64,000 nt of DNA from a virus (IMGVR_UViG_3300025000_000084:7611-71610); one strand, 5' to 3'. Counted from the stretch's first letter, positions 28,797-48,464 are shown. The notes: a model not told the origin generated them from the sequence alone. Program-made: numbers and translations.

Positions 28797-29411
28797 ATGG
28801 ATAAAGGGGGTTTAGCCAACAGGGTAAAAGTCAAACTGGACGAGTTCACTCCCGAGGGAGTGGGCTTGCCCTTTGACGAATACATAGGCCCTCTCCTGGA
28901 CGAGAGTGCAAGGGATCTTGTATTGCAGGGTCCTTTGCACTTATTGTCACCGACCTCCATTCCTCTTACATCTGTCGCGTATGCAGACGGTAAAGCATAC
29001 ATACCCGTCCCAGCGGATTGGGTGCGCCTCTATGAGCTGAAATACCCTTTATGGAAGAAACCTGTTCGAGAGGCCATATCAAAAGAGAATCCTGAGTATA
29101 AGCTGCAGGAAAACGAATATCTCCGGTCCGGCTATGGAAGGCCGAGTGTAGCGGTGGTCACTACCGTAATAGGTGGTGGCGCTGTCACACGATACCTGGA
29201 GTGCGGACGGGTGGATGATCCCGGTGCAACTCCCTTAACTCCCGTGGCCCTCTACGTTGCCGAAACTAAGCCTGAAGATCTTAATGACCAGCTTGTTGAT
29301 GCACTCACTTGGAATGCGACCGCAAAAGTGCTATCAGTTATGGGTATGCAGGACAAAGCGCGCGCGGCTATGGAGCAGTATGTTATTGCCTTGAAGTCAC
29401 TTATGCTATGA
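28797..29411 (+). CDS. Probable head-tail adaptor
   Basis: YIPVPADWVRL...RSGYGRPSV...DALTWNATAKVL; position. Confidence 0.6.
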   Translation: MDKGGLANRVKVKLDEFTPEGVGLPFDEYIGPLLDESARDLVLQGPLHLLSPTSIPLTSVAYADGKAYIPVPADWVRLYELKYPLWKKPVREAISKENPEYKLQENEYLRSGYGRPSVAVVTTVIGGGAVTRYLECGRVDDPGATPLTPVALYVAETKPEDLNDQLVDALTWNATAKVLSVMGMQDKARAAMEQYVIALKSLML

Positions 29412-30094
29412 AAATATCCGGCATATATAGAATTGAATCATTAACAAAGCCCGAAAGAGTTTACGTTGGGAGCTCTGTAAACATTAAGACAAGATGGAGG
29501 AAGCATTTACGTGAATTGCGATCTAATAATCACGTTAACCAGATACTCCAAAACCATTTCAATAAATACGGAGAAACGGATTTTGTCTTTGTAATTGTGG
29601 AACTATGCTTCCCGGAGTTTCTTACAGCAAGGGAACAATATTATATAAACAAAGAGAAGCCACATTTCAATATTTGCGGAATTGCCGGGACTACTTTAGG
29701 ATTTAACCATTCAGAAGAAGCAAAAAAGAAAATAGGCAAGGCGTCAGAAGGAAATAAAAATATGGCGGGTAAACACCATTCCGAAGAATCAAAGAGAAAA
29801 ATTAGCGAGGCCTTGAAAGGCAAACGCATCTCCGAAGAGACAAGGGAAAAATTAAGTGTAGCCAAAAAAGGTAAAGCTTGCAAAGGACACCCTCATACCG
29901 AGGAAACCAAAAAGAGAATAAGTGAAAGCCGAAAAAACAGACCTCCTATTTCAGAAGAGACTCGTAAAAAAATGAGTGAAGCACGTAATGGCAAGGCCCC
30001 TTGGAATAAAGGAAAGAAGGGACTTCAGATAGCGTGGAATAAAGGACTTAAAAGGTCAAACGGCACAAGTGAAAAAAAATTACGAGCAGCATAA
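29408..30094 (+). CDS. Free-standing GIY-YIG homing endonuclease with NUMOD3 repeats
   Basis: Likely start MKISGIYRI...VYVGSSVN, HSEE repeats, ATGA overlap. Confidence 0.9.
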   Translation: MKISGIYRIESLTKPERVYVGSSVNIKTRWRKHLRELRSNNHVNQILQNHFNKYGETDFVFVIVELCFPEFLTAREQYYINKEKPHFNICGIAGTTLGFNHSEEAKKKIGKASEGNKNMAGKHHSEESKRKISEALKGKRISEETREKLSVAKKGKACKGHPHTEETKKRISESRKNRPPISEETRKKMSEARNGKAPWNKGKKGLQIAWNKGLKRSNGTSEKKLRAA

Positions 30095-31321: not shown

Positions 31322-32338
31322 ATGGACGACTCCAGGATAGATATAAACCTTGCCGATAGCCCTGGACTATTCATTCAGGAGCTTGATGATAACATCGGTA
31401 TTGATGTGGTCTTTGATGATCATATCGAGGTTGATATCTTTGCCACGGAGCGTCTTGCCGATCACGGAGGGCTGCAGGGCCTCACCGATGATGACCATAC
31501 TCAATACTACAATCAGGCCCGGGGAGATGCCAGGTACGAGAGGTACCTTGGCCTCCCTGCGGCTAATGATTATGTTCTCTATGGCCGAACTGACGGCACC
31601 CGTTATTGGGGAGTGCCAACGGGAGAAGGAGGTACGGGCTCCGTATATCATAATCTTCTGCTCGGGATCCAGGGAGGCGCGACCGATGACTATTACCATC
31701 TCCCGGCCAACCTCTACAATGCCTTTGAGTATGTTCCCAACGGAGGCAATCCCTATCTGAGGGTTAAGCTGCCGATAGCCTGTGACGGAGATGTTCAGGC
31801 ATTTTCTGATACGGGCTGGCTGCCTCCGGATATATGGGCTGCCATGCCTTATGCTACAAACAGCTCTATAGGTGGGATACAGTTTACAACCGCGAGCCCC
31901 GCGGCCAAGTACCTCAGAGAAGATGGAGCTTGGGTAGTGCCTCCGGTTGGCAGTGGTAGCGGAATGGTTTACCCGGGAGAGGGTATTGCCCGGTCCACCG
32001 GTGCAGCCTGGGCCGCCTCGCTCACAGATAACTCAGTCGGGTGGAATGCTGCCTCAGTATGGGTAGCCGCCAACGGAGCCAACGCTGTGACAGCCTACGG
32101 ATGGGGCAACCATGCGAGCGCCGGCTATCTCACGGCTATCAATAAGGCCCTGGTAGAAGCGGTGCTCACCGGATCCATTACCAGCCATAACCATCCAACG
32201 GTGAATACAGCAAACTACTCCATCGTTCAGGAGAGTGGCAAGCTGGTGATAAAATACGGGGCAACAGCAATAGCGAGCTTCAGTTCGGCAGGGCTATTGA
32301 CTGTGGCTGATGATGTAGAAGCCTTTGGAACACCTTGA
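31322..32338 (+). CDS. Tail fibre-like protein without a signal peptide
   Basis: DHGGLQGLTDDDHTQY, HNLLLGIQGG...YYHL, KYLREDGAW, AYGWGNHASAGY motifs typical of phage fibres. Confidence 0.75.
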   Translation: MDDSRIDINLADSPGLFIQELDDNIGIDVVFDDHIEVDIFATERLADHGGLQGLTDDDHTQYYNQARGDARYERYLGLPAANDYVLYGRTDGTRYWGVPTGEGGTGSVYHNLLLGIQGGATDDYYHLPANLYNAFEYVPNGGNPYLRVKLPIACDGDVQAFSDTGWLPPDIWAAMPYATNSSIGGIQFTTASPAAKYLREDGAWVVPPVGSGSGMVYPGEGIARSTGAAWAASLTDNSVGWNAASVWVAANGANAVTAYGWGNHASAGYLTAINKALVEAVLTGSITSHNHPTVNTANYSIVQESGKLVIKYGATAIASFSSAGLLTVADDVEAFGTP

Positions 32339-33787: not shown

Positions 33788-34102
33788 ATGAAAATGCGCA
33801 TAGATAACAACGGAAACCCGGTACCGGTACTTGCAATCGGAGCAAAGGGTGTCTATATAGATGGCACATCAGCAACGGCTAAGTCCGCTGCCCTGGCAGC
33901 TGGTATTTACCGCATCTGTCCTCCGGAGGCTACGGCAGACGGGGTGAACTATACGGCCGGTGCAGATAGTATTGCAGCTCCACTTGAGGCCGAGGCAACA
34001 GACACATACCTGGCTGTGGGAGCCATTGAATCAATCTATGTTCCCGATGGTCATAAGATAGCCGTATTAGGTGGTAAACTGAGTATCACTCTGCTGGATT
34101 AA
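33788..34102 (+). CDS. Small virion protein
   Basis: 104-aa beta-rich ORF starting MRIDNNGNPVPVL. Confidence 0.55.
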   Translation: MKMRIDNNGNPVPVLAIGAKGVYIDGTSATAKSAALAAGIYRICPPEATADGVNYTAGADSIAAPLEAEATDTYLAVGAIESIYVPDGHKIAVLGGKLSITLLD

Positions 34103-34629
34103 TGAGACTGATCAACAACATAGGGCGCACTCTCAACCGGCTCGGATCTAACTTCGGCAAGCCGACTGGACTACCGTCTGCCTTGCGTGATAAGTTCCTG
34201 TTCATCTGGACCGGCAAGTATGACGGGGATAATCTGCTTTCAGACCTGGATGCTGAGGTGATCACGGTAACGGATAAGGATTGGATCACCAGGTTCATCC
34301 CTCCGACTACCGCGGCCACTTTTGCGGTCCCGGATGATGCCACGTTCCTTGCAGCTGACGGTGATGATGACTTCTGGTTTAATGCCGGGGGTGATCTTCA
34401 GGAAAAGACCCATGCGAATCTCATTTCCAGCACAACCGAGAGGTCCTTTGTTAAGTATGCGGACACCGAGCCTCATAACGTGATAGGCATAGGCATCCTC
34501 AAGACGGGTGAAGTGCTGAGTGCCGGGGAGATAATCAAGGTGAACCGGTACTTCCGTCTGTGGGCTGAGTATTGGGGTGAGCTGATGGATAGCGGGTACA
34601 TGAAAGACAACAGGATAGGTAACGAATAA
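34102..34629 (+). CDS. Hypothetical structural protein
   Basis: 175 aa, TAATG coupling. Confidence 0.55.
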   Translation: MRLINNIGRTLNRLGSNFGKPTGLPSALRDKFLFIWTGKYDGDNLLSDLDAEVITVTDKDWITRFIPPTTAATFAVPDDATFLAADGDDDFWFNAGGDLQEKTHANLISSTTERSFVKYADTEPHNVIGIGILKTGEVLSAGEIIKVNRYFRLWAEYWGELMDSGYMKDNRIGNE

Positions 34630-34639
34630 ACTCAAGACA

Positions 34640-36556
34640 ATGAAGAAGATAATAATCATTCTGATAGCGGTTATGCTGATGGGACTGGCCGGTTGTATCG
34701 GGACAAAAATATATCTCGGCAAGGAGCAGTCCATCACAAAGGACCTGGAGCTTCTGGATGAGGGACCAATAGCCAGGGCAATAGATCCGACTACCGTTCC
34801 TGCCGGAGGTACCTGGGGCACGGTCCGCGGGATCCTGAACACTAACTTCAGTAATATCAACGGGACCCTGGACTCGGTGGAGGTCACGCTGGCGGAGTTT
34901 GCCGATAGCATCACGAACTATTCAGCGGATATTGCACTGCGAACTCTCATCGGTGATGTACGAGATGAAATTGCGGATAGTCTCAACGTCTTGCGTCCAT
35001 CTGTGCTTTTTAAATCCGATAGTACACTTTATGCTACTCAAAGCGATCTTGCAGCTATTGAAACCGGGGCAGTTGATAGTGCTGTTTATGCCACAAGAAA
35101 TTATGTCGGGATAACCTTTGCTCCAATAGCAAACCCGGTATTTACCGGAATACAGAAGGTAAGTACGACTGATACTCTTGCAACAATGGCATATGCCCGT
35201 CAGTATGGAGGAACCGGAACGGTCACAATATCTGATGTGCAGGATGAGATTGCTGATAGCTTGAATGTCCTTAGACCTCTTACCCTTGTTGGTGATGCAA
35301 CTGCCGGTCCGTTTTTTGATGGAAGTTCTGATGGTGGTCAATTACTCTATTTCTACGGAGACAATGGGTTCTATACGGCCCTCCAGGGAGGAGCGCCAAC
35401 GGCAAATAGGAGTTACAGACTTCCTATAGCAGCACTTCCGTCCGCTGGCACTACAAGTTTATTGAATATTGATGAGAATGGTAACATGGGATTTGTTGCT
35501 TCGGCTACATTCAACGCGGCAACAGTTACCGGGTTTACTCCTGCAAGTGGTTCTTTAACTTTGAGTGGAGCAGATGCGTTAACTTTTACTACAACAGCTA
35601 CTACAGGTGTAACCCTGCCAACTTCAGGCACATTAGCTACAATAGAGAACATTAATGACAGTCTTGACGCAAGGATAGGAGGGGGCGTAGAGCTCTCGGA
35701 TGTAGCTATAATGATTGCAGACAGTACCGGAAACGCTGTAGGTAATTATGTCACACGAAAGGCCCTTATTGACAGCCTTGCGGCTAATCCGGCGGGGTTA
35801 TCTTCTGGGGCCGTTGCTACAATGATTAATGACAGCATACAGGCACGACTTGACGTGGCTGTTGACGGGGTTAGACTTGCCGATTCTGTGAACTACGTCA
35901 ATGGTTATATGTCGAGATATGATGGAGTGACTGGATTAGCTACAAAGATTAATGTTGCCGATAGTACAGGTAATGCCCCAGGGAACTATGTCACACGAAA
36001 AGCATTAGTTGACAGCCTTAATGCAATAGCCGGAGGATTGGTGATTGGCGATGTCCGTGACGAGATAGCCGACAGCTTAAACGCTCTGCGACCAAGCATA
36101 CTTACCGAGGCAGACCTACGAAAGTATGACAGCGACACTACAACCCTCTTTGTCTTCGGTGCTGGCAGCGGAGGGGCAGAGGCAGACACAGCCTTATTTA
36201 CGGCAAGCAATATCTATGGGTCTTTCTACAATGCGGGGTCGGATACTTTGGTGGTGACATCGCTTCGGGCGGTGATGATAGCAGGGACAACGCCATTAGG
36301 AACAGATACTCTCTCAATACAGATATATTGGAACGACACGATAAACGTGACTACTGGCAATAGCTTCGTTGTACTGAACACCGACCCTCTCGGCATAAAC
36401 TCCACGACCACGGGAACGGTTGATTCATCTTTCGATAACTCAGCTATCCCGCCTAACGTGTGGGTGTTCTGTAAGTCGCCCGGGGTAGTGACGGGGCGAA
36501 AGCCAAAGGCATTGATTGTGAATATGACCGGGTACAAACGTAACAGAAGTTATTAA
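34640..36556 (+). CDS. Tail-fibre-like protein with a lipoprotein signal peptide and internal repeats
   Basis: MKKIIIILIAVMLMGLAGC lipobox; fibre motifs GTWG..ILNTNF, APIANPVFTG, VTLPTSGTLAT; three DV(R/Q)DEIADSLNxLRP repeats. Confidence 0.75.
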   Translation: MKKIIIILIAVMLMGLAGCIGTKIYLGKEQSITKDLELLDEGPIARAIDPTTVPAGGTWGTVRGILNTNFSNINGTLDSVEVTLAEFADSITNYSADIALRTLIGDVRDEIADSLNVLRPSVLFKSDSTLYATQSDLAAIETGAVDSAVYATRNYVGITFAPIANPVFTGIQKVSTTDTLATMAYARQYGGTGTVTISDVQDEIADSLNVLRPLTLVGDATAGPFFDGSSDGGQLLYFYGDNGFYTALQGGAPTANRSYRLPIAALPSAGTTSLLNIDENGNMGFVASATFNAATVTGFTPASGSLTLSGADALTFTTTATTGVTLPTSGTLATIENINDSLDARIGGGVELSDVAIMIADSTGNAVGNYVTRKALIDSLAANPAGLSSGAVATMINDSIQARLDVAVDGVRLADSVNYVNGYMSRYDGVTGLATKINVADSTGNAPGNYVTRKALVDSLNAIAGGLVIGDVRDEIADSLNALRPSILTEADLRKYDSDTTTLFVFGAGSGGAEADTALFTASNIYGSFYNAGSDTLVVTSLRAVMIAGTTPLGTDTLSIQIYWNDTINVTTGNSFVVLNTDPLGINSTTTGTVDSSFDNSAIPPNVWVFCKSPGVVTGRKPKALIVNMTGYKRNRSY

Positions 36557-36557
36557 G

Positions 36558-37091
36558 ATGAAGAAATATATTATCATTCCGATACTACTCCTCAGCATCA
36601 TTTGTAACGCTCAGTTCACAAAGGGAGGAGGGCAATTTCTGAAGACGGGGAGCGGTTTTATGTCGGCTCCGGCAATAGTAGAACCTCCCGCTGTCAATAT
36701 GCTTTCTAATGGCACATTTGATGATGCAACGGATTGGACTTGTAGTAGTGTGGTTTGGACAATAACGGGAGGTAAGGCTAATTATGATAATACCGGAAAT
36801 TCGAGAATATATCAAGCCTCTGGAGATATGGTTATATCGATAGAGGCGAGTACGGCCTATACCATAACTTTTGATGTAGATATCATTGCTGGTGCTCCAC
36901 CCGAACTTACCCTGCAATTTTGTTCTTCAAACGCATTAATTGTGTATGCGGCCTATGCAAATTTTACCGAAGGAGCCATGAGCGCAAGTTTTACTACACC
37001 AAGCGATATAGGCGATGGGGGATTGGGTATAAGGGCAGCAGTAGGTGGAGCCACCGCCACTATAGATAATCTTGTATTAACCGAAGATTAA
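36558..37091 (+). CDS. Secreted carbohydrate-binding-module-like protein
   Basis: Signal peptide ending ICNA|Q; NMLSNGTFD...YTITFDV...IDNLVL resembles a CBM4/9-type jelly roll. Confidence 0.65.
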   Translation: MKKYIIIPILLLSIICNAQFTKGGGQFLKTGSGFMSAPAIVEPPAVNMLSNGTFDDATDWTCSSVVWTITGGKANYDNTGNSRIYQASGDMVISIEASTAYTITFDVDIIAGAPPELTLQFCSSNALIVYAAYANFTEGAMSASFTTPSDIGDGGLGIRAAVGGATATIDNLVLTED

Positions 37092-37092
37092 A

Positions 37093-39693
37093 ATGAAAAA
37101 AACACTTTATATAATACTGTTCTTGCTGGTTTCTATTAATCTTTATTCACAAAGCGTTTATTTCGTTCAAGATACAGCATACAATGCGAATGCGTCGGAC
37201 AGTAACGCCGGTACGGATATTGACTATCCTTGGGCAACCTGGCAAAAAGCGTTAGTGACAGCACAAGCCGGAGATACAGTTTATTTTAGAGGTGGTGTAT
37301 GGTATCCCGAAGCCAGGATAAAGAAAGACCCTGACAATACTCAGTTGTATGGTGCAAGCGGCTACAACGGAACGTATGACGCTCCTATAGTCTACATGGC
37401 TTACCCTCCCGATGTGGCCGAAGGAGATATACCAATATTAGATTGCATTAATCATACTACTCTTAGTTCTTTTGATCAGGGTATGCAGTTTTTTGGGACA
37501 TACCAAAAGCTGATTGGCCCAATGGAAATTCGTCATGTTAAAGAGAAGGTATATAATCAAGAAATAAGGGGTATTGAATTTGGCAACGGTAGCTTGGGAG
37601 GAAATGTCTGGCTTGAAAGAATTGTATCTCATGATCATGGTGGTTATGGTTTTTTAATGAATGGGTTTGATACTTTATATATTACCAACTGTGACGCATA
37701 TAATTGCGTGGATAGTATTTCAGATCATCCGGGGAATAGGTCAGATGGATTCGGAGGTGGTAGTGGAGGTACGGCAGTTGATACTTTTAAGGTGGCTTAT
37801 TTTACGGGATGCAGATCATGGCATAATTCAGATAACGCCTTTGATCTTGCTGCTGGTTTCCAATTATATGTTGAAGACTGTTGGGCATGGAGTTGTGGTT
37901 ATCTTGAGGAAGGTGCTGGAGGTCATTTTAAATTTGCGGGTAGTGCAGTAAGAGATATGACAAAGCGGGTTGTTAAAAACACTATATCAGCATTTGCGAC
38001 AGGAGCGGGATATGTAACAGAAAATCTTTATTATCCTAATTACGGGCCAGTAATGTCATTTTATAATAACACTTCTTATAAAGACCAAATAGCATTCCAA
38101 GATGCTAATGAATGTGATGATGATCCTGATTGGGGGTGGACGCAGAGTTTAACAACCGGAAGATGTGTTTTTAGAAATAATATTGCCTACCAAACAAGGG
38201 GTAATAACGGCTTTAATGTATATGGTGCAACATTTGCTGCATGGTGTTATCAATACCCACAACACATAACACAAGATCATAATAACTGGGAACAGTTTGG
38301 GGACTATTATGCAACGCAGGTAAATGCAGATTACACCATTACTGACGATGACTTTACTTCAGTAGATTCTGTAACTATAGTTACACAGTTATCTGCTCCA
38401 AGAAAAGATGACGGTTCTCTTCCTGACATAACTGTATTAAAATTAGCGCCTGGCAGTGATCTTATTGACGGTGGTGTTAATGTAGGACTACCTTATTCTG
38501 GTACTGCACCCGACCTGGGATATTCTGAATTTGCTCCAATAATAGCCGATCATACGGTTGTAGATCGGTTTGATGACATACCTCAATATTACATTGATAA
38601 AGTAAAAGAAATGAGATTTGTCATTGCAGGCGAATCACACGCCTTGGGCTATGGCAGAGGATTGGAGAGATTAGAGGTTGACTATCCTCAGTTTGTTGTT
38701 AATTACCAATATAATCCAGGATCGCCTGAGGCTTATACAACATCACGTTTAAGAGCCGATCTATATACCTGGGGAGATGTAACCCATGCAACAGGTTGGA
38801 TATGGGGTTACGGAGAAGAAGACTGGTTTACATCGGCGGCTGCTATAGCACAGACAAAGGTAGGCTTATCTTATACTAATAATACAGTTTATGAACCATA
38901 TGCATTCGGATTCGGATGGTGTTATGATGGTGCAATAATAGATGCTACTGATTATATAGAGGCTACTAAAGAATACATTGACTATTGTGCAGATAGTATT
39001 GATACTAAGATTTACTATACTACAGGCCCAGTTGATTTGATGTACGATGAAATAGGCTACAATAAATATCTCATGTATGAACAAATACGAGATTCTGTAT
39101 CTGCCGATCCAAGCAGAATGTTGTTCGATTTTGCTGACATATTATACTATGATGACAGCGGTGATTATAGCACGGAACCATACACCGTTACATGGGATGG
39201 TCATACATACCCCGTTGGAACGCCAACTAATGTAGAGGATGATTTTGGTGCGCATATGTCTTGGGAGGCCGCCGTCAGGCTTGCAAAAGGCGTTTGGTGG
39301 ATGCTGGCAAGGATGGCCGGATGGGATGGATTATCGGTATCTGCACCATCAGAAAGCGATGCCACCGACATAACCGCCTTTTCCTTTACCGAGCAGACGG
39401 GAGCAGCAACCATCAACACCACCAACCACACGATAAGCATAGAGGTAGCCTACGGGACAAGCCTGACATCTCTCAGCCCCTCGATAACCGTATCCTACGG
39501 GGCATCTATTGACCCTCCCGGTGGCACGGCAAGGAACTTCACCTCTCCGGTTACCTACACGGTGATGGCAGAAGATGGGACGACCACACAGGTATGGACG
39601 GTGACGGTGACGGTTGAGGACTTGCCAATAGGACATGCAGCTAAGACAGGCAACAGGATAATGCTTCACAACGGAGAACCGGTAAGACTATGA
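37093..39693 (+). CDS. Secreted multidomain enzyme: PL9-like beta-helix, SGNH-like domain, DUF5018-like Ig domain
   Basis: Signal peptide ending LYS|Q; PWATWQK...AGDTVYFRGG; GNRSDG...NSDNAFD...HFK; LIDGG...APDLG; IAGESH; NFTSPVTYTVMAEDG. Confidence 0.8.
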   Translation: MKKTLYIILFLLVSINLYSQSVYFVQDTAYNANASDSNAGTDIDYPWATWQKALVTAQAGDTVYFRGGVWYPEARIKKDPDNTQLYGASGYNGTYDAPIVYMAYPPDVAEGDIPILDCINHTTLSSFDQGMQFFGTYQKLIGPMEIRHVKEKVYNQEIRGIEFGNGSLGGNVWLERIVSHDHGGYGFLMNGFDTLYITNCDAYNCVDSISDHPGNRSDGFGGGSGGTAVDTFKVAYFTGCRSWHNSDNAFDLAAGFQLYVEDCWAWSCGYLEEGAGGHFKFAGSAVRDMTKRVVKNTISAFATGAGYVTENLYYPNYGPVMSFYNNTSYKDQIAFQDANECDDDPDWGWTQSLTTGRCVFRNNIAYQTRGNNGFNVYGATFAAWCYQYPQHITQDHNNWEQFGDYYATQVNADYTITDDDFTSVDSVTIVTQLSAPRKDDGSLPDITVLKLAPGSDLIDGGVNVGLPYSGTAPDLGYSEFAPIIADHTVVDRFDDIPQYYIDKVKEMRFVIAGESHALGYGRGLERLEVDYPQFVVNYQYNPGSPEAYTTSRLRADLYTWGDVTHATGWIWGYGEEDWFTSAAAIAQTKVGLSYTNNTVYEPYAFGFGWCYDGAIIDATDYIEATKEYIDYCADSIDTKIYYTTGPVDLMYDEIGYNKYLMYEQIRDSVSADPSRMLFDFADILYYDDSGDYSTEPYTVTWDGHTYPVGTPTNVEDDFGAHMSWEAAVRLAKGVWWMLARMAGWDGLSVSAPSESDATDITAFSFTEQTGAATINTTNHTISIEVAYGTSLTSLSPSITVSYGASIDPPGGTARNFTSPVTYTVMAEDGTTTQVWTVTVTVEDLPIGHAAKTGNRIMLHNGEPVRL

Positions 39694-39782
39694 GCCTTCT
39701 GGGATAAGATAACAATAAAGGTCAACCTGGTATCGGTGATAAAGCTGGTGCGATGGTGGAAGAAAAGACGGAGGAAAGAATA

Positions 39783-40076
39783 ATGAACGATTTGATATTA
39801 CACTTCGGATTCGGGGCGCTGATAACAGCGGCGATCCTCTTGATATTCAGCAAACCGACTGCCGGACGCAGACCTGATTGGTTGGTAGTGCTGGCCGTTG
39901 GTGCCTCTCTCACCCTTGGTGGCATAAAAGAGGCCGGGGATCTATGGCTCGGATGGGGTACTCCGGAGGTGGCAGATCTCACGTTAACCTGGTCGGGAGG
40001 GATAGTGGCCCTTGCGGTCATTGCCATGGTTGATTGGATCATTTATGTAATATGCTTTAACCGTAATAAACGATGA
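39783..40076 (+). CDS. Small multi-pass membrane protein
   Basis: Hydrophobic helices with a KExxD...D..T..G pattern common in phage late regions. Confidence 0.6.
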   Translation: MNDLILHFGFGALITAAILLIFSKPTAGRRPDWLVVLAVGASLTLGGIKEAGDLWLGWGTPEVADLTLTWSGGIVALAVIAMVDWIIYVICFNRNKR

Positions 40077-41617
40077 AAAAGATTCTCATATCTACAATAC
40101 TTGTTTTGGCAATAGTCATCAATAGCTGTGCGCCAAAGAAGATGATGACGAGCGCCAGGGCGTTTGATACATCGCCCTTGGACTCCATAAATGTCGGGGC
40201 GTACAACAATGATCCGTCAGCGGATAAACTTCGTACCTCCTTTATCAAGGCAAACCAGCCGATCAACTTGGCCAATTACCTTGAGCTTTATACCTTCTCT
40301 CCAGCTGAGTTCGCAATTCTTCGCGGAGGGCTTATTACTACTGCCGAACTGAATCGTCTTTCAGGAGTGACCTCTAACGTCCAGACACAGCTCAATGCCC
40401 GGATAGAGACCGCAGACAGCACCGGGAATGCTGCTGGCAACTATGTCACCAGGAAGGCGCTGCGAGATACCATCGCAAGCGGTGACTATGCCACAAAACA
40501 AAACATTAATGATACTATGAGCACTTACCTTGCTACCGCAACGGTAGGTGTTGCTGCCGCGGATTCAAACATCTATGCGGGTTACACCACGCGAACATAC
40601 GTTGAGTCATTATTAGGCAGCGGATCGGGGTTATCTGCCCAACGACTGGCGTTTATTATAGGCGTGACCACAGGTGCGCCATCGGCTGCTGACTCAATAG
40701 TAGTTCATTCGTCCTTTGAAGGTAAGCATATAGATGTTTACCGTAATACTAATACTATAACTGGTGGAGCCAAACAATTTCAACAGTTCACAGCAACAAA
40801 TATTTATGATGGATTTAGGGTAAAACATGATACCATTACTGTTAATCCAGTATGGGTTGCCGGCGAACAAGTAATGATAGACATTATTGAACCTATTTTA
40901 TGGAGCTACCTGTCACTTGAGGGGGAGGAGTCAGCTTTGCTTGACAGTTTGAATGGTTATTGGAAGTTCGATGAAGCATCGGGTACTGCGGTGGTTGATG
41001 CTACCGGCACACAGAACGGAACAACTAACGCCACGGCTGGGGTTGCTGGTAAACTTGGATTGGCACGAGACTTTGATGCAGCAAATGATGTGGTTAATAT
41101 AGCCTACAACGCCAATACGGTTCCGAGTGGTGCTGATTTCTCAGTAGCCATGTGGTTTAAGATGGATAGCTTACCTTCAGTGATGGCGCAGAGTAACTAC
41201 CTGTTCCAACAGAACAGAGGCTCAAGCCCATATAGCGCTCATTATTTATATATAAATAGTGCTGACGATAAGTTAAAGGGAGTGACAAGGAATACGGACG
41301 GAACATCTTATGAAGTGCTTTCCTCGGGGGCGTTATCAGTAGATACGTGGTATCATGTGGTATTCGTAAATAGAGGTGACGGACAGACCTTGCAGATGTA
41401 TCTTAACGGAACAGATGTATCTGCATCAGCAGGAACATTTAGTGGAACTTTAATGGAAAGCGCATCAACTACTTGCTTTGGTAATTCTTATAGTGGAGCA
41501 GGAAGTTATTTTGAAGGAATAATTGACTCTCCCGGGATATGGAACAGGGCATTAACATCGGGCGAGGTAACAACCTTATATAATTCAGGCAACGGGAATA
41601 CCCATCCATTTAATTGA
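40073..41617 (+). CDS. Fibre-like lipoprotein with a C-terminal LamG/ConA domain
   Basis: MKKILISTILVLAIVINSC lipobox; NDPSADKLRTSFIKAN; TAELNRLSGVTSNVQTQLN; GYWKFDE...WYHVV...IWNRALTSGEV. Confidence 0.8.
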   Translation: MKKILISTILVLAIVINSCAPKKMMTSARAFDTSPLDSINVGAYNNDPSADKLRTSFIKANQPINLANYLELYTFSPAEFAILRGGLITTAELNRLSGVTSNVQTQLNARIETADSTGNAAGNYVTRKALRDTIASGDYATKQNINDTMSTYLATATVGVAAADSNIYAGYTTRTYVESLLGSGSGLSAQRLAFIIGVTTGAPSAADSIVVHSSFEGKHIDVYRNTNTITGGAKQFQQFTATNIYDGFRVKHDTITVNPVWVAGEQVMIDIIEPILWSYLSLEGEESALLDSLNGYWKFDEASGTAVVDATGTQNGTTNATAGVAGKLGLARDFDAANDVVNIAYNANTVPSGADFSVAMWFKMDSLPSVMAQSNYLFQQNRGSSPYSAHYLYINSADDKLKGVTRNTDGTSYEVLSSGALSVDTWYHVVFVNRGDGQTLQMYLNGTDVSASAGTFSGTLMESASTTCFGNSYSGAGSYFEGIIDSPGIWNRALTSGEVTTLYNSGNGNTHPFN

Positions 41618-41618
41618 T

Positions 41619-43043
41619 ATGAGAAAATATCTAACTATATTATTGATTTTACTGCCGCTTCTCCTGAATGCGGGGACATACTACGTGGCTACAACGGGAA
41701 GTGATGCGGCGGCAGGGTCGCTTGCCGCTCCGTGGGCAACGTGGCAAAAGGGATTCTCTACAATTATTGCTGGTGATACATTATATATAAGAGGTGGCAC
41801 ATATCAACCGATAGGAACGTCTATTGGAACTATTTTTACAACCGAATGGTGGGGGTGTGTGGGACTGTATAACCACAACGGCACGGCACTGAACAGAATA
41901 GTAGTGATGAATTATCCGGGGGAGATACCGATCCTTGACGGTGTGAATAATACCGCAGCAAATAACGGACGGGGCGGTTCACGCTTTGGAATAGTGATGC
42001 GCCACTGTGACTACTGGACATTTAAGGGCTTAAATGTAACGGGCGTGGTTCAGCTTACAGGAGAATTAGGGGTTGCCGGATTTAGGATGCAAGAAAATTC
42101 AGACCATAACGAAATAATCGAATGTAATGTTTATGGTATGGGAGGTTCGGGTATTTCTCTCATGTATGACTGCACGGATAATTTGATATACAACTGTGAC
42201 GTATATGATAATGAAGACCCGCTAAGTACGCCAACCCCGGGAAATAACTCTGACGGGATAGAGATAGCAGACATAACCGACACAGCTATGGTCAATACCA
42301 TTAGAGGCGTAAGGATGTGGGGGAACTCTGACGACGGAGTGGATTTAATGCGTAATGAGGGTAAGGTAATTATTGATAGCTGTTGGGCTTTTTATAATGG
42401 TCTTCTCGCCGGGAAGGTTGCAAACGGGTTTAAGTTAGGTTGGGCAGAAGACCCTCCGGTGATTGAATACAATCGTGTCGTCACAAATTGTATGGCAGCA
42501 TATAACACCAGCACGGGGTTTAACGCAAATAACTGTATGCAGAAGATGCAGATATACAATAACCTGTCAATAGGAAATGATAATGATGGTTTCTGGTGGT
42601 ATATTTTTGGAGCAAGGGGTGGGGCATCAATATTCAGAAATAACATATCAATCTTAAATGACGGGTATCAGTACTCTTATATTTATCTTGATACTTATAC
42701 TTTCGATCATAATAATTGGGATGCACTCTACGATCAGACGGGGCCCGTGGCAAGCGTTGAGGACTTTGTAACGTTGGATACGTTAGGCTTGCGGTATTCG
42801 AGAAAAGCCAATGGCAGTCTCCCTGATATAAATTTTGCCAAGCTAAGGTCAACATCAGATTTAATTGATGCGGGAATAGATGTTGAGATCGCATACACCG
42901 GGATATATCCCGATTTAGGGCTATTTGAATATGTTGTCGAGGAGATAGATGAAGAGGATTTCCCGAGGGTTACAGCGATAGGCACGGGTACGGGCAATAA
43001 CTTATTAGTTGATAAAAACGGAAGAGTAATAATCATACAATAA
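41619..43043 (+). CDS. Secreted PL9 (Pel9A-like) right-handed beta-helix lyase
   Basis: Signal peptide; YYVATTGSD...PWATWQK...GDTLYIRGGTY; GNNSDG, NSDDGVD, NGFKLG. Confidence 0.85.
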   Translation: MRKYLTILLILLPLLLNAGTYYVATTGSDAAAGSLAAPWATWQKGFSTIIAGDTLYIRGGTYQPIGTSIGTIFTTEWWGCVGLYNHNGTALNRIVVMNYPGEIPILDGVNNTAANNGRGGSRFGIVMRHCDYWTFKGLNVTGVVQLTGELGVAGFRMQENSDHNEIIECNVYGMGGSGISLMYDCTDNLIYNCDVYDNEDPLSTPTPGNNSDGIEIADITDTAMVNTIRGVRMWGNSDDGVDLMRNEGKVIIDSCWAFYNGLLAGKVANGFKLGWAEDPPVIEYNRVVTNCMAAYNTSTGFNANNCMQKMQIYNNLSIGNDNDGFWWYIFGARGGASIFRNNISILNDGYQYSYIYLDTYTFDHNNWDALYDQTGPVASVEDFVTLDTLGLRYSRKANGSLPDINFAKLRSTSDLIDAGIDVEIAYTGIYPDLGLFEYVVEEIDEEDFPRVTAIGTGTGNNLLVDKNGRVIIIQ

Positions 43044-43433: not shown

Positions 43434-43658
43434 ATGGAGTTCATAAACAGCTGGAAGTCGAAAAAGAAACAGGGTGACAAGATCGCCATCAAGGTAAGGA
43501 TAGGCAAGTTTACCCTCTTCGATCTGTACTATGACCATGCCAAACGCCAGTTTGGAATCATATTGTTTAACCTGGGAGCCAGAACGTCACTCCCGAAAAA
43601 GTGTGAAAGCAATGAAAACTATAAAGGTTCTACTTATGAAGATAGCCGCTTTCTTTAA
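43434..43658 (+). CDS. Small hypothetical protein
   Basis: Likely start MEFINSWKSKKKQGDK; beta-rich. Confidence 0.55.
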   Translation: MEFINSWKSKKKQGDKIAIKVRIGKFTLFDLYYDHAKRQFGIILFNLGARTSLPKKCESNENYKGSTYEDSRFL

Positions 43659-44448
43659 GAGGATTTTCACTCCGGCACCGGAGCAGCCATTTGTTTACGG
43701 GATGTATTGCTGTCTGTCCTTTGCCATCAATAAGTACACCCAGAGCCCTCTGAGGGGTTGCCTTAACGATCAGAAAAGGATTGTAGCCAGGATAAAGCAG
43801 TTCTGGTCACAGTTTGTGTTCCGGTTGTTTCAGGACTCCGATGCTACTTGGCAGAAGTTCGAGGCCGAGATCCTGAAAGCTTTTGAAAACATGCCTACCG
43901 GATGGCTGATAATTCACTACTCGGGGCATGGGACCTACAAACGTAATCCCCGGGAGATAGACGGGTTCAGCGAGGCATTCTATTTCCATAACGGCTCTTA
44001 TGCCGACTACCAGCTCTATGAACTTATGAAGAAGAAGCCGGCAGGACTGAAGGTGGTCTTTATTCTCGACTGCTGCTTCTCTACCGGTATCACTGTCCCA
44101 AGGGTCAAGTATAATCCACACTACAAGCAGGCCCGTTTCCTTGTCTCTGAGCCGATGCCGGAGAACTTCAATGTATCCAAGAGAGCAATCATCGAAGAAG
44201 ATATTGACTGGATTGTATTCGCTGCCTGTGGTGAACGGGAGACAGCGGCAGATGCTTACATCAATGGGGATTATACAGGAGCATTCTCATGGTACTTTTC
44301 TCAGATCATGCGACCGGGGATCTTCTTTGCCAATTGGCAAAAAGAAGTTGATAAGTACCTTCCGTCAACTGATTATAAGCAGTCCCCTTCGCTTACGGGA
44401 AGCAATGAGCTTATGCACCAGCTTCCATTTGAGATACCGGCAGTATAA
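43612..44448 (+). CDS. Caspase-family (C14, metacaspase-like) cysteine protease
   Basis: INKY..SPLRGCLND, HYSGHG, ILDCCFS, AACGERETAAD, GAFS, QSP. Confidence 0.9.
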   Translation: MKTIKVLLMKIAAFFKRIFTPAPEQPFVYGMYCCLSFAINKYTQSPLRGCLNDQKRIVARIKQFWSQFVFRLFQDSDATWQKFEAEILKAFENMPTGWLIIHYSGHGTYKRNPREIDGFSEAFYFHNGSYADYQLYELMKKKPAGLKVVFILDCCFSTGITVPRVKYNPHYKQARFLVSEPMPENFNVSKRAIIEEDIDWIVFAACGERETAADAYINGDYTGAFSWYFSQIMRPGIFFANWQKEVDKYLPSTDYKQSPSLTGSNELMHQLPFEIPAV

Positions 44449-44546: not shown

Positions 44547-45335
44547 ATGAAACAAAGTAAGTTTTTAAATCTGAATTGGGCTGACCTGGGAAAGGGACTG
44601 CTCATTGCATTCCTTACTGCCCTGCTGGGCGGCATACTTGAACTTCTACAGGCCGGTGAACTACCGACTACATGGGTAGCGTTTCAGCCTATCCTTGAGG
44701 TTTCTCTTTCGGCAGCGGTGGCATATTTGCTCAAGAACATGTTTACAAACAGTGAAGGCCAGCTAATGAAGGGAGAGCTCTCCGCACAGAGAAAGCGAGC
44801 CTCAAGGATGGGAAGGGTCATGCCTCTGCTTATCCTGTTATGCTTATTGAGTTTCGGAGTCAATGCACAGGGGTTTGTAAAAGATGTAACGCCCGAGAGA
44901 ATCGCCAAGAAACAGGCGGTCAGAGAACGGAGTACGGACACCTTAGTGTATAACGACCAGCATGCTTATTTTCTCAGGGGAGGACTTACGGCTGGGTATA
45001 AAAAGCTCTATTATTCCTCTACCGAAAAGAAGATTCTTGGCAACGATTATGAGAGACCAGGCGTAGGACTTGAATACGCAAAGTACACCGTGGTAAATGG
45101 AGAGGCTGTGAGTGATATTGGGTTCGGAGGATATCTCATGATTCCGGTTAAGGATGCGGAGAATTACATATCCATTCTCGCTACAGTACAGATATATGAC
45201 CTCGCACGAAAGTTCAAATTAGACTTTCTACCTCCGGGGCTTAGTATTGGATGCGGCCCGTGTTACGACTTTAATAACGCCATACCACTTATCGAGAGAT
45301 TTGGCATTGTGCCAACCATTGCGATAAAATTCTGA
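44547..45335 (+). CDS. Holin-like N-terminal domain fused to a signal-peptide-bearing, beta-barrel-like domain
   Basis: DLGKGLLIAFL...AYLLKNMFTNSEG (two TM helices); internal MPLLILLCLLSFGVNA|Q; alternating beta strands ending IAIKF. Confidence 0.6.
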   Translation: MKQSKFLNLNWADLGKGLLIAFLTALLGGILELLQAGELPTTWVAFQPILEVSLSAAVAYLLKNMFTNSEGQLMKGELSAQRKRASRMGRVMPLLILLCLLSFGVNAQGFVKDVTPERIAKKQAVRERSTDTLVYNDQHAYFLRGGLTAGYKKLYYSSTEKKILGNDYERPGVGLEYAKYTVVNGEAVSDIGFGGYLMIPVKDAENYISILATVQIYDLARKFKLDFLPPGLSIGCGPCYDFNNAIPLIERFGIVPTIAIKF

Positions 45336-47201: not shown

Positions 47202-48464
47202 ATGGCAAAATTCAAGACCGTTATTCTCGCCTCCGAGAAGAGGCAGGATAAAAAAAGCAATGTTAAGATCCGGGTAACACATAACCGGTACGTCCGTTTT
47301 GTTGCTACCGAGTATCATGTACTGGAGAAATACTTTGACCATGACTCCGGGACCATCCTCCCCGGTGGAGGGTTTACAGCCGACCAGGCTGACCGGGCCA
47401 ACGGCAAGATACAAATGCTCATCGGAGATATGGTGCGAAAGACCGAGGCCCTACGGAACCTCCGCTTTATGGATATGCCATCGCTTATGACCATCCTCCG
47501 GGACAAACACCGCGAGCAGGACCTTTACGCCCTGGTTGACGAGAGGATAAGCCGGCATGACGGGGAAGGGAATTTCAACTATGCAAAATGCTTCCGGTCC
47601 ACCAAGGCCGTATTGAAGGCATACACCAGCGCCAGGGTGGTCCCGTTCACAACTATTGACGCGGAGTGGCTCAAACGATATGAGAGGTGGATGCGCACCC
47701 ACGGCATCAGAAAAGAGACAAAGGGTATGTCTGCAAATAGCATCGGGGTACACATGCGAAACATCCGGACCGTTTACCGGGAGGCTATGGATATCGGGCT
47801 GACTGATCGCGCGGCATACCCCTTCCACCGCTACCGGATCCCCAGGGAAGATACACGCAAGCGAAACCTCACGGCCGAAGAGATGCAGAAGATCATTCAC
47901 GTTAAGTTGAGCAACCCAACTATGGCCTGGTCTCGGGACATGTTTCTGTTGAGCTTCTATCTTATAGGTATTAACATGCGGGATCTGATGTTCCTAACCT
48001 CAGAGAACATTGACGAGGGCAGAGTATATTATAGAAGGAGTAAGGGCAAGCAGGACTACTCTATTAAGATCTTCCCCGTGGCCCAGGCAATCATTGACCG
48101 ATACCCGGGCCGAAAGTTTATCCTTGACACCATGGAGCGATACACCGACTACCGGACCGCTACCAGGCTGATCAATAAGAAGCTCAAGGCGATTGCCACG
48201 GACCTGAAGATCACCAAGCCCGTCACAATCTATTGGGCCCGGCATACCTGGGCTACCGTAGCAATAGGCAAAGAGGTAGGTGCATCAAGGGACGTTATAC
48301 GTTATGCCTTGGGGCATGGCATTGGTAGCCTGGTAACAGATATTTACATACAATTCGACCTGTCCCAAGTAGATGCGGTAAACCGAAAAGTAATTAAGTT
48401 GGTTCAGATGCAGCCTAAACAGCCTCGCGCCGGATCAGTCCCTTCACGCGAAACAAAGCAATGA
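47202..48464 (+). CDS. int: Tyrosine integrase (Bacteroidetes type)
   Basis: Arm-binding N-terminus VKIRVTHNR, SAM-like domain, GINMRDL, RSKG, YWARHTWAT, LGH, TDIY. Confidence 0.95.
   Translation: MAKFKTVILASEKRQDKKSNVKIRVTHNRYVRFVATEYHVLEKYFDHDSGTILPGGGFTADQADRANGKIQMLIGDMVRKTEALRNLRFMDMPSLMTILRDKHREQDLYALVDERISRHDGEGNFNYAKCFRSTKAVLKAYTSARVVPFTTIDAEWLKRYERWMRTHGIRKETKGMSANSIGVHMRNIRTVYREAMDIGLTDRAAYPFHRYRIPREDTRKRNLTAEEMQKIIHVKLSNPTMAWSRDMFLLSFYLIGINMRDLMFLTSENIDEGRVYYRRSKGKQDYSIKIFPVAQAIIDRYPGRKFILDTMERYTDYRTATRLINKKLKAIATDLKITKPVTIYWARHTWATVAIGKEVGASRDVIRYALGHGIGSLVTDIYIQFDLSQVDAVNRKVIKLVQMQPKQPRAGSVPSRETKQ

What the first reader, a model, noticed from the sequence alone, without database searches (positions are those of the whole stretch)
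34640..43043. Exported tail-fibre cassette: virion-type fibre proteins carry lipoprotein and Sec signal peptides
Seen: five late-operon genes begin with export signals (lipoboxes LAGC at 34640 and INSC at 40073; SPI peptides at 36558, 37093 and 41619, two obeying the Bacteroidetes Q-rule). The two lipoproteins continue with motifs I recognise from phage fibres and baseplate anchors (GTWG..ILNTNF, APIANPVFTG, VTLPTSGTLAT, NDPSADKLRTSFIKAN, TAELNRLSGVTSNVQTQLN, LamG tip). Established: tailed phages normally assemble fibres in the cytoplasm. Inference: part of the adsorption apparatus is built in the periplasm or on a membrane and joined to the virion at lysis, or fibre scaffolds have been repurposed as a lysogen surface appendage.
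Basis: partly seen in the sequence, partly recalled or inferred. Interest (0 to 1): 0.88.

Follow-up and report, generated by a model that had tools for sequence, protein, structure and literature searches.

The report
Exported tail-fibre-like cassette in phage
A groundwater phage that probably infects a Bacteroidota bacterium puts bacterial export signals on five neighbouring late genes for fibre-like and sugar-cutting proteins, so this gear seems to mature outside the cytoplasm, where tailed phages are not known to build parts; whether it ends up on the virus particle is still open.

Summary
The window lies in a complete 71.6-kb tailed-phage genome. Five adjacent late genes (34640-43043) all start with Sec or lipoprotein leaders. 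By a crude rule they are 5 of only 6 such ORFs among 88.

The leaders are conserved: 96 of 120 and 49 of 61 metagenomic homologues of the two fibre-like proteins carry one. Lipobox and signal-peptidase-I/Gln types swap between relatives.

The two lipoproteins are mosaic proteins built from tail-fibre modules that normally sit on leaderless fibres; only 7 of 143 such proteins have a leader. The other three genes encode a stand-alone fibre-tip domain and two Pel9A-type beta-helix enzymes related to host secreted enzymes.

The cassette travels between phage backbones together with two leaderless proteins and a three-helix membrane protein.

Export is well supported. The final destination is not. 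My odds:
- late envelope or egress helpers that are not in the virion: 0.45
- virion parts added after export: 0.30
- lysogen surface appendage: about 0.08

This scan has found the same phenomenon on other DNA. The nearest work in print is the unknown-function Q-rule genes of Porphyromonas phages. No trained signal-peptide predictor or experiment was available.

The parts
33788..34102 (+). p104, a small leaderless protein that travels with the module
   Evidence: Homologues lie upstream of p175 in L004, L005, L016 and L017 (33-79% identity). No Pfam hit.
34102..34629 (+). p175, a conserved leaderless protein immediately upstream of the exported fibre gene. Probably a virion-side or cytoplasmic partner; function unknown.
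   Evidence: 50-78% identity across five loci. It lies directly upstream of the fibre gene in 7 of the 9 loci where the upstream side is visible. In L004 it is fused to a C-terminal Fib_succ_major lectin-type domain (E 5e-21). The fold model has low confidence (pLDDT 49).
34640..36556 (+). Exported mosaic fibre-like lipoprotein (638 aa; leader ends LAGC)
   Evidence: It has a conserved N-terminal and central domain, a mosaic shaft and swapped C-terminal tips. The C-terminal 500-638 is a confident beta-sandwich, with best VIA Z 8.4 to phage decoration or fibre-tip proteins and CBMs (not decisive). It carries 20 D-(S/T)-(A/I/L/V/M/T) motifs against 4.5 expected.
36558..37091 (+). Exported stand-alone tip or CBM-like domain (177 aa; ..CNA|Q)
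   Evidence: 39% identical over 134 aa (E 1e-21) to the C-terminal domain of P0091, a member of the 638-aa fibre family. Homologues sit at the same position in L005, L013, L015 and L016.
37093..39693 (+). Exported three-part enzyme (866 aa; ..LYS|Q): Pel9A-like beta-helix, an uncharacterised secreted mid domain, and DUF5018
   Evidence: Pfam PF22842 (E 6.8e-17, residues 17-272) and PF16410 (E 1e-10, residues 755-847). The mid domain 485-750 belongs to an unnamed secreted family and is only weakly SGNH-like. It is split into two leader-bearing ORFs in L004. It has 11 Cys.
39753..40076 (+). Small membrane protein with three hydrophobic segments (holin-like), embedded in the cassette
   Evidence: Read from the sequence. 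Small hydrophobic ORFs of 100-139 aa lie at the same place after the beta-helix gene in L004, L008, L013 and L018. No family hit.
40073..41617 (+). Exported fibre-like lipoprotein with a LamG tip (514 aa; leader ends INSC)
   Evidence: Laminin_G_3 E 1.6e-21. The N-terminal motif after the leader aligns with the N-terminus of leaderless P0110 (14 of 23 identical), which hits PHROG 677, baseplate wedge tail fibre connector (E 1.6e-9). Residues 30-135 hit 1,888 library proteins, mostly leaderless fibres. It carries 8 sequons against 2.3-2.5 expected in two shuffle runs.
41619..43043 (+). Exported Pel9A-like beta-helix enzyme (474 aa; ..LNA|G)
   Evidence: PF22842 E 1.4e-22 (residues 18-265) and PF13229 E 7.1e-8. 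It has 8 Cys. Relatives of 54-78% identity lie on small contigs; relatives of 35-43% identity are bacterial proteins with the T9SS sorting domain PF18962 on contigs of up to 6.3 Mb.
43531..44448 (+). Caspase-family (C14) peptidase without a leader. It is a neighbour that co-occurs with the cassette; its role is unknown.
   Evidence: PF00656 E 1.6e-15. Homologues lie next to the cassette or the lysis genes in L004, L010 and L018.

Best explanation
The cassette is a mobile late-gene module of Bacteroidota phages. Its five products are translocated by the host Sec system into the periplasm late in infection.

There they are processed like host envelope proteins:
- two are lipidated at a lipobox Cys;
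- two are cut to expose an N-terminal Gln (Q-rule), and one is cut before Gly;
- the Cys-rich enzymes can form disulfides;
- the fibre-like proteins are probably O-glycosylated.

They lack both a T9SS sorting domain and an acidic lipoprotein surface signal, so they stay between the membranes until lysis.

My most likely reading is that they are not virion parts. I read them as a glycan-binding and glycan-cutting kit that acts on the dying cell's own envelope polysaccharides and debris. It would clear capsule or EPS for egress and mask or destroy receptors, so that progeny are not lost on debris.

Shown: the leaders, their conservation, the domain make-up, and the module's linkage and mobility.
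Inferred: the translocation itself, the processing, the timing and the function.
For: Leaders:
- 5 of the 6 flagged ORFs among 88 are this block.
- In the 638-aa family, 96 of 120 homologues are flagged. By eye, 16 more show a leader displaced or cut by the start call, 5 are fragments and 3 look leaderless.
- In the 514-aa family, 49 of 61 are flagged.
- Leader types swap: 35 lipobox, 60 SPI-Gln, 1 other and 24 none of 120; and 10, 38, 1 and 12 of 61. This shows selection for export, not for a particular sequence.
- Only 35 of 95 and 11 of 48 have any Met within 30 residues after the predicted cut, so a leaderless isoform is not a conserved feature.
- The fused 866-aa enzyme is two ORFs in L004, each with its own leader.

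Host-type enzymes:
- The Pel9A match begins at residues 17-18, right after the leader.
- Relatives of 35-43% identity are chromosomal proteins with T9SS domains.
- The mid domain's structural neighbours are secreted Bacteroidota proteins.
- The enzymes have 8-11 Cys, against 1 Cys in the 3,911-aa virion-type protein.

Late and lysis-linked:
- The genes are tightly packed, and a three-helix membrane protein is embedded in the block.
- No TTTG..TAnnTTTG motif lies inside the cassette.
- The caspase, an OMP-like protein and DUF5675 follow.

Other points:
- Lipid-anchored and soluble forms interchange, which suits an envelope-located function.
- The phage has its own leaderless fibre-like protein with variable C-termini in relatives (31322-32338), so the cassette is not needed as the only receptor binder.
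- In print: Porphyromonas phages carry Q-rule signal-peptide genes of unknown function, read there as envelope modifiers (PMC10367356 and PMC10653852, passages read).
Against: - The two fibre-like proteins have the hallmark of virion receptor-binding proteins: a conserved N-terminal module, a mosaic shaft and swapped tips.
- Right after the leader the 514-aa family keeps the motif that starts leaderless fibre and baseplate-connector proteins. A free helper would not need it.
- Two leaderless proteins (p104, p175) are co-inherited with the cassette across unrelated backbones. p175 carries an extracellular-type lectin domain in L004, which suggests a virion-side partner.
- In the compact structural operons of L005 and L006, the exported proteins are the only receptor-binder-like genes in the part I could see.
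- The cassette takes 8.4 kb of 71.6 kb, a large investment for a helper.
- The strong, motif-specific enrichment of the O-glycosylation sequon in the fibres (3.9-fold, n=112) suits a long-lived extracellular part better than a protein needed for minutes.
- No direct evidence of egress or receptor-masking activity exists.
Confidence: 0.45

Rival explanations
1. Two-compartment virion assembly. The fibre-like proteins, perhaps with the tip domain and the enzymes, are true adsorption organelles. They are exported and mature in the periplasm (pGlu cap, O-glycans, disulfides). They dock onto cytoplasmically built particles only when the holin opens the inner membrane or the cell bursts, possibly through the co-inherited leaderless p104 and p175 proteins.
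For: - The fibre repeats of the 514-aa protein are those of ordinary leaderless tail fibres: 1,888 library hits, and only 7 of the 143 best new representatives carry a leader.
- Homologue P0173 hits nine PHROG families, seven of them annotated tail fibre protein (best E 2.3e-12). Leaderless P0110 hits the baseplate-fibre connector PHROG 677 with the same N-terminal motif.
- The architecture is conserved N-terminus, mosaic shaft and swapped tips.
- A tip domain occurs either fused or as a separate exported protein. The Fib_succ_major domain occurs either on leaderless p175 (L004) or as an exported protein (L009).
- p175 is adjacent in 7 of 9 loci.
- The cassette sits in the tail-fibre slot in several backbones.
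- Sequon enrichment is specific to the fibres: ratios 3.93 and 2.34, against 1.00 for the enzymes and 0.64-1.24 for control motifs.
- From recalled knowledge: fibreless T4 particles accept fibres in vitro, so late attachment is physically possible.
Against: - There is no precedent and no proteomic data.
- 35 of 96 and 10 of 49 leader-bearing family members are lipoproteins. Their acylated N-terminus would be held in a membrane at the very end expected to dock.
- The enzymes have no N-terminal particle-binding domain.
- The phage has a leaderless fibre-like protein of its own.
- The AF2 monomer of the fibre is low-confidence (pLDDT 48.8), so trimeric fibre geometry is not shown.
- A similar claim on other DNA was priced at 30 in 100 by a later check of this scan (note e1-3444272).
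Confidence: 0.3
2. Lysogenic conversion. The cassette is expressed from the prophage. It gives the lysogen a surface or periplasmic appendage for adhesion, capsule remodelling or superinfection exclusion, like lambda Lom/Bor or the T5 Llp and TP-J34 Ltp lipoproteins.
For: - The phage is temperate: integrase at 47202-48464 and an S24 repressor at 48415-49056(-).
- Exported phage lipoproteins that block receptors or DNA entry are known (recalled).
- The cassette lies at the tail-fibre to lysis junction, where morons often sit (recalled).
Against: - The genes abut or overlap within the late operon.
- The pattern TTTG-N17-23-TAnnTTTG has 3 matches in the window, none inside or just upstream of the cassette.
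- Sigma-70-like and terminator-like sites do not exceed the shuffles.
- Neither a T9SS domain nor an acidic post-Cys signal is present, so surface exposure is not expected (the rule is recalled).
- Known exclusion lipoproteins are small (recalled), not 514-866 aa.
I did not test that phage's lifestyle.
Confidence: 0.08
3. The N-terminal hydrophobic segments are not export signals. They might be uncleaved membrane anchors or assembly tags that a phage protease removes in the cytoplasm (for example the neighbouring C14 peptidase), or artefacts of start-codon choice.
For: - No trained predictor or experiment was available.
- The major capsid protein of this phage and of L003 also starts with a long hydrophobic stretch. 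Matrishin et al. suggest that a prohead protease cuts such capsid 'signal peptides' (PMC10367356).
- A conserved leaderless C14 peptidase lies nearby.
Against: - Each leader begins at the first start codon after the upstream stop.
- The leaders have the full n-h-c layout, with a lipobox Cys or a small residue followed by Gln: 60 of 61 and 38 of 39 SPI-type leaders end [AGSCT]-Q. That is a host signal-peptidase and glutaminyl-cyclase signature (PMC5837995 abstract in a listing; PMC10653852 passage).
- Bacterial relatives of the enzymes are bona fide secreted T9SS substrates.
Confidence: 0.05

Closest known systems
Signal-peptide genes of unknown function obeying the Bacteroidetes Q-rule in Porphyromonas gingivalis phages (Matrishin et al. 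2023, PMC10367356; also mentioned in PMC10653852)
   Same: Tailed phages of Bacteroidota carry genes with host-type Sec leaders that expose Gln. Their capsid proteins also have signal-like N-termini. The authors read the genes as proteins sent to the envelope (passages read).
   Different: In the passages I read, five genes of unknown function are reported without mention of fibre-type architecture, enzymes, lipobox/SPI swapping or a mobile cassette. Their Supplementary Data 4 could not be opened, so overlap with fibre-like genes cannot be excluded. I did not compare the two gene sets by sequence, so kinship was not tested.
Multi-protein receptor-binding modules of podoviruses (fibre plus adaptor plus tailspike depolymerase, for example G7C, K1-5, CBA120; recalled, not tested here)
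   Same: Position after the tail genes. A long mosaic fibre with a conserved N-terminus and swapped tips, separate small tip or lectin proteins, and beta-helix polysaccharide enzymes. The whole set is swappable between phages.
   Different: Those proteins have no export signals and assemble in the cytoplasm. Here every member has a leader, and the enzymes lack an N-terminal particle-binding domain.
Host secreted Pel9A/DUF1565-type beta-helix enzymes of Bacteroidota with T9SS C-terminal sorting domains
   Same: 35-43% identity over about 90% of the 474-aa protein, the same Pfam domains and an N-terminal Sec leader.
   Different: The phage copies lack the PF18962 sorting domain, so by inference they should stop in the periplasm. 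They are encoded in a phage late operon.
Exported prophage lysis-cassette proteins XepA (PBSX) and YomS (SPbeta), PDB 6i56 and 6i5o
   Same: Phage-encoded proteins next to lysis genes that work outside the cytoplasm. Their beta-sandwich resembles the fibre's C-terminal domain (Z 7.3 and 7.0).
   Different: The Z scores are in the range the tool calls common. The hosts are Gram-positive, there is no fibre architecture, and no sequence similarity was found.
Receptor-masking or exclusion lipoproteins (T5 Llp, TP-J34 Ltp; recalled)
   Same: Phage lipoproteins that protect progeny or the lysogen by acting on the envelope.
   Different: Those are small, are not fibre-like, and are expressed early or from the prophage. 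No homology was tested or seen.

Membership tests
Sec/signal-peptidase-I substrates obeying the Bacteroidetes Q-rule | Basic n-region, hydrophobic h-region, small residue at -1 and Gln at +1 | tested here: met
   36558 (CNA|Q) and 37093 (LYS|Q) fit; 41619 has Gly at +1. Among homologues, 60 of 61 and 38 of 39 SPI-type leaders end [AGSCT]-Q. This rests on a crude rule of my own, not a trained predictor.
Sec/signal-peptidase-I substrates obeying the Bacteroidetes Q-rule | Actual cleavage and pyroglutamate formation | not testable with these tools
   Needs N-terminal mass spectrometry.
Bacterial lipoproteins (signal peptidase II substrates) | Lipobox [LVI][ASTVI][GAS]C at the end of the h-region | tested here: met
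   34640 has LAGC. 35 of 120 homologues keep a lipobox Cys at the same place.
Bacterial lipoproteins (signal peptidase II substrates) | Lipobox in the 514-aa protein | tested here: inconclusive
   INSC has an atypical Asn at -2. Relatives have ..SSC..TSC..ISC or ..NSC with the Cys conserved; 10 of 61 are classed as lipobox.
Phage tail fibre proteins | Sequence match to tail-fibre families | tested here: inconclusive
   The two window proteins hit no PHROG or Pfam fibre family at E 0.01 or better. Homologue P0173 hits nine PHROG families, seven of them annotated tail fibre protein (best E 2.3e-12), and P0110 hits PHROG 677. Residues 30-135 of the 514-aa protein hit 1,888 proteins whose best representatives have fibre-type repeats and are mostly leaderless.
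Phage tail fibre proteins | Conserved N-terminal module, variable shaft, exchangeable C-terminal tip | tested here: met
   Alignment A1 of 20 family members. Tips are a jelly-roll, LamG or CBM-like domain, and the same tip also exists as a separate gene.
Phage tail fibre proteins | Trimeric fibrous structure | tested here: inconclusive
   The AF2 monomer has pLDDT 48.8; only the C-terminal beta-sandwich is confident. No trimer was folded.
Phage tail fibre proteins | Presence in the virion | not testable with these tools
   No isolate relative exists: no match for the 638-aa protein, and only weak partial matches (up to 51% of the query, under 40% identity) for the 514- and 474-aa proteins among 50,697 phage records.
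Pel9A-like right-handed beta-helix polysaccharide lyases / DUF1565 | Pfam PF22842 or PF13229 above the gathering score | tested here: met
   61.9 bits against a cut-off of 25.2 (866 aa) and 80.6 bits against 25.2 (474 aa). Catalytic residues and substrate were not examined.
Lambda-type morons (own promoter and terminator inside a late operon) | Independent promoter and terminator flanking the insert | tested here: not met
   No Bacteroidetes-type promoter motif lies in or before the cassette. Sigma-70-like and terminator-like sites do not exceed the shuffles. These are consensus scans only.
T9SS cargo | C-terminal sorting domain (PF18962 or similar) | tested here: not met
   None of the five proteins has one, whereas bacterial relatives of the 474-aa protein do.

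The most novel reading that the evidence does not exclude
Tailed phages of Bacteroidota build part of their adsorption apparatus in a second compartment. Fibre-type receptor binders are exported by Sec. In the periplasm they are capped with pyroglutamate or lipid and coated with the host's O-glycans. They join the DNA-filled particle only when the holin opens the inner membrane. The co-inherited leaderless p104 and p175 proteins would be the docking site on the tail.
Probability: 0.3. Interest if true: 0.9.

Novelty: new variant of a known kind. Interest (0 to 1): 0.7.

Why it matters
Tailed-phage morphogenesis is taken to be cytoplasmic. Here a conserved, mobile module puts host export signals on fibre-type and depolymerase-type proteins.

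Either phages stage part of their host-recognition gear in the periplasm, where it can be glycosylated, disulfide-bonded and N-terminally capped, or they have turned fibre scaffolds into exported tools that act on the cell envelope at egress. Both readings are barely described.

Both also matter for three practical tasks:
- predicting host range from genomes, because receptor-binder callers ignore or misfile leader-bearing proteins;
- understanding how phages cope with capsulated Bacteroidota;
- mining stable, secretion-competent glycan binders and depolymerases.

The probable O-glycosylation of a phage protein by the host's general system would itself be new for tailed phages.

Tried and rejected
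- **Structure of the 638-aa protein.** The AF2 model from a 20-row alignment has mean pLDDT 48.8, and only residues 500-638 are usable. VIA wide gave a best Z of 8.4 (7eel_H, rmsd 3.3, 115 aligned), 7.9 for the fibre of Agrobacterium phage 7-7-1 (9rkv_M) and 7.3/7.0 for XepA/YomS. All are within the range the tool calls common. The BFVD Foldseek hits have TM 0.2 or less on a low-confidence model and I disregard them.
- **PDB sequence searches.** No match for the A1 profile. Only two weak LamG-type hits (E 0.015 and 0.03) for the 514-aa protein.
- **Complex prediction.** p175 with fibre residues 20-300 gave no verdict (score 0.00, controls not run).
- **p175.** The fold has pLDDT 49, so I ran no fold search. 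The atlas gave nothing above 0.9.
- **Similarity inside the window.** I found none between the 638-aa protein and the window's own leaderless fibre-like protein (best E 0.23).
- **Isolate anchor.** The three Bacteroides temperate phages that share the capsid protein (33% identity) have a different tail region without the cassette (BS-TP4).
- **Other collections.** Scans of genome contigs (none a relative among 72 pattern matches) and metagenome contigs (9 loci) added little context.
- **Sequencing runs.** No RNA holder is listed. Four DNA runs of one groundwater study hold the stretch and may be its source.
- **Host.** I did not determine it directly. Bacteroidota is inferred from the Q-rule leaders, T9SS-bearing relatives and distant Bacteroides-phage capsid hits.
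- **Literature.** Searches found no paper that describes export signals on tail-fibre-type proteins of tailed phages. PMC12014285 (marine phage virion proteomics) does not mention signal peptides. PMC6199706 states that phage DGR targets lack signal peptides. PMC5723332 reports only 1-2 signal peptides in two rumen Bacteroides phages and does not say which proteins.
- **Correction.** My note, 54 says 97 ORFs; the count is 88.

Full report
**What the window is.** The window is bases 7611-71610 of a 71,610-bp IMG/VR virus record with direct terminal repeats, rated complete. It is a tailed phage. Its recognisable genes are:
- a P22-like portal (14907-16904);
- a large terminase (23492-25498, minus strand);
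- an SU10-type major capsid protein (26885-28267);
- a 3,911-aa polyvalent protein (2490-14225);
- an integrase (47202-48464) and an S24 repressor (48415-49056, minus strand);
- a RecT-type early region.

The only GenBank phages with a related capsid protein are three temperate Bacteroides phages at about 33% identity. Their tail regions differ. Four DNA runs of one groundwater study hold the stretch; no RNA run does.

**The observation.** Their N-termini have the classic layout of two basic residues followed by a hydrophobic core. The core ends in LAGC (34640) or INSC (40073), or in a small residue followed by Gln (36558, 37093) or Gly (41619). A crude hydropathy and charge rule flags 6 of 88 non-overlapping ORFs of the whole genome. 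Five of these are this contiguous block. No trained predictor was at hand.

**Conservation of the leaders.**
- Of 120 listed homologues of the 638-aa protein, 96 pass the same rule. By eye, 8 more have the leader behind a mis-called upstream start or carry one acidic residue, 8 start inside the leader, 5 are fragments and 3 look leaderless.
- Of the 61 best homologues of the 514-aa protein, 49 pass.
- Leader type is interchangeable among relatives: 35 lipobox, 60 SPI with [AGSCT]-Gln and 1 other in the first family; 10, 38 and 1 in the second. The near-universal Gln fits the Bacteroidetes Q-rule (PMC5837995, abstract seen in a listing; PMC10653852, passage).
- A Met within 30 residues after the predicted cut is present in only 35 of 95 and 11 of 48, so a leaderless isoform is not conserved.
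- In L004 the beta-helix and the mid domain of the window's 866-aa protein are separate ORFs, each with its own leader.

Together these points argue that export itself is under selection.

**What the proteins are: the 638-aa family.** This family has a conserved N-terminal module, a conserved central domain, a mosaic shaft and exchangeable C-termini. The window's C-terminal 140 residues fold as a beta-sandwich. Its best structural neighbours are phage decoration and fibre-tip domains and carbohydrate-binding modules, at Z up to 8.4, which is not decisive.

**The 177-aa protein.** It is a stand-alone copy of the C-terminal domain of another family member, P0091 (39% identity, E 1e-21).

**The 514-aa protein.** It carries a LamG tip. 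Just after its leader it has a motif that aligns with the N-terminus of leaderless P0110, and P0110 matches PHROG 677, a baseplate-wedge tail-fibre connector (E 1.6e-9). Its residues 30-135 hit 1,888 of 1.84 billion library representatives. The 143 best new ones have classical fibre repeats, and only 7 have a leader. So these are fibre modules that normally live on cytoplasmic proteins.

Neither window protein hits a fibre family directly, and trimer geometry is not shown.

**The two enzymes.** Both match Pel9A-like beta-helix domains starting right after the leader. Their closer relatives (54-78% identity) lie on small contigs. At 35-43% identity the relatives are chromosomal Bacteroidota-type proteins with T9SS sorting domains. 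The 866-aa protein also has an uncharacterised secreted-type mid domain and DUF5018. The enzymes hold 11 and 8 Cys, whereas the 3,911-aa protein holds 1.

**The module.** Across 14 related loci the gene order recurs:
- p104, then p175;
- a leader-bearing fibre;
- a leader-bearing small protein (the 177-aa type, a 250-300-aa type, or a Fib_succ_major domain in L009);
- a leader-bearing beta-helix enzyme;
- a small membrane protein with three hydrophobic segments;
- often a second fibre and a second enzyme;
- then a C14 peptidase, an OMP-like protein and DUF5675.

p175 lies directly upstream of the fibre in 7 of the 9 loci where that side is visible. A window-type capsid gene is present in only 3 of the 14 loci, so the module moves between backbones. 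No relative was found in 185,579 species genomes, nor in isolated phages: there was no match for the 638-aa protein and only weak partial matches for the other two.

**A further sign of periplasmic life.** The Bacteroidota O-glycosylation motif D-(S/T)-(A/I/L/V/M/T) is known from PMC8550257 (abstract seen in a listing).
- It occurs 20 times in the 638-aa protein against 4.5 expected (z 7.6) and 8 times in the 514-aa protein against 2.3 expected (z 3.8). The window's leaderless fibre-like protein has none.
- Family-wide, the observed-to-expected ratio is 3.93 (n=112) and 2.34 (n=48). It is 1.00 for the enzyme family (n=119) and 0.64-1.24 for four control motifs.
- In the eight viral-contig loci, leader-bearing ORFs hold 1.07 motifs per 100 aa and the others 0.31.

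Much of this sits in repeated shaft motifs, so the events are not independent. A purely structural reason, such as helix capping, is not excluded.

**Where do they end up?**
- None of the five proteins has a T9SS domain. The residues after the lipobox Cys are neutral or basic, not the acidic surface signal I recall for Bacteroidota. Periplasmic retention until lysis is therefore the simplest expectation.
- The genes are packed into the late operon. No Bacteroidetes-type promoter motif lies within or before the cassette, and sigma-70-like and terminator-like sites do not exceed the shuffles. This speaks against lysogen expression.
- Between 'non-virion helpers released at lysis' and 'virion parts added after export', the evidence is split.
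- For helpers: host-type enzymes without a particle-binding domain, free interchange of lipid-anchored and soluble forms, an embedded holin-like gene, and a leaderless fibre-like gene elsewhere in the tail operon.
- For virion parts: the receptor-binder architecture, the retained fibre N-terminal motif, the co-inherited leaderless p104 and p175 (p175 bears a lectin-type domain in L004), the fibre-slot position, and the glycosylation signature.
- A complex prediction of p175 with the fibre gave no verdict.
- My odds are 0.45, 0.30, 0.08 (lysogen appendage) and 0.05 (leaders not export signals), with the remainder unassigned.

**Comparison with what is known.** The nearest report in print is Matrishin et al. 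2023. It describes Porphyromonas phage genes of unknown function with Q-rule signal peptides, and capsid proteins with signal-like N-termini (passages). My five literature searches found no description of export signals on fibre-type proteins of tailed phages. The library is partial and supplements were closed. This scan has met the phenomenon repeatedly on other DNA; one such claim was later priced at 30 in 100 for the bold reading. I file the finding as a new variant of a known kind: phage-encoded exported proteins, here recruited from tail-fibre and depolymerase modules as a mobile cassette.

Noticed in passing
window 26885-27040: The SU10-type major capsid protein starts with a long hydrophobic stretch. 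The same is seen in the 66%-identical capsid protein of L003. Matrishin et al. mention capsid 'signal peptides' in Porphyromonas phages.
   Followed up: partly
window 43531-44448; L004 17046-17831; L010 3226-4098; L018 8400-9233: A leaderless caspase-family (C14) peptidase is conserved next to the exported cassette and the lysis genes in several backbones. I recognised no prohead protease between the portal and capsid genes.
   Followed up: partly
window 44547-45335: This 262-aa ORF has an N-terminal membrane segment, an internal Q-rule-type leader and a C-terminus ending in Phe, like small outer-membrane barrels. In L004 (16192-16551 and 16553-17041) there are two separate leader-bearing ORFs at this place, of which the second looks OMP-like, and in L018 a leader-bearing 155-aa ORF (9743-10210). 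It may be a Lom-like or spanin-like envelope protein.
   Followed up: no
window 2490-14225: The 3,911-aa polyvalent protein (InPase, LPD1/5/23/38 domains) contains a single Cys, in contrast with 8-11 Cys in the exported enzymes.
   Followed up: no
window 562-1260, 14222-14905, 51209-51925 (and probably 29411-30094): Three to four GIY-YIG/NUMOD3 homing-endonuclease genes, plus an HNH/NUMOD4 gene (54757-55350), are scattered through the genome.
   Followed up: no
L012 (metagenome contig of 144,519 bases): The cassette is 100% identical on a contig about twice the phage genome length. This could be a head-to-tail dimer assembly or a prophage in a host contig; I did not resolve which.
   Followed up: no
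L004 8786-9940 and L009 10474-11202: The Fib_succ_major lectin-type domain occurs on a leaderless p175 homologue in one phage and as a leader-bearing stand-alone protein in another. Domains therefore shuttle between cytoplasmic and exported members of the module.
   Followed up: partly
window 34697-34720 and homologues: Lipobox members of the 638-aa family share a conserved short segment just after the Cys, followed by a charged linker of about 25 residues that is absent from the SPI-type members. It may be a sorting or tether element.
   Followed up: no
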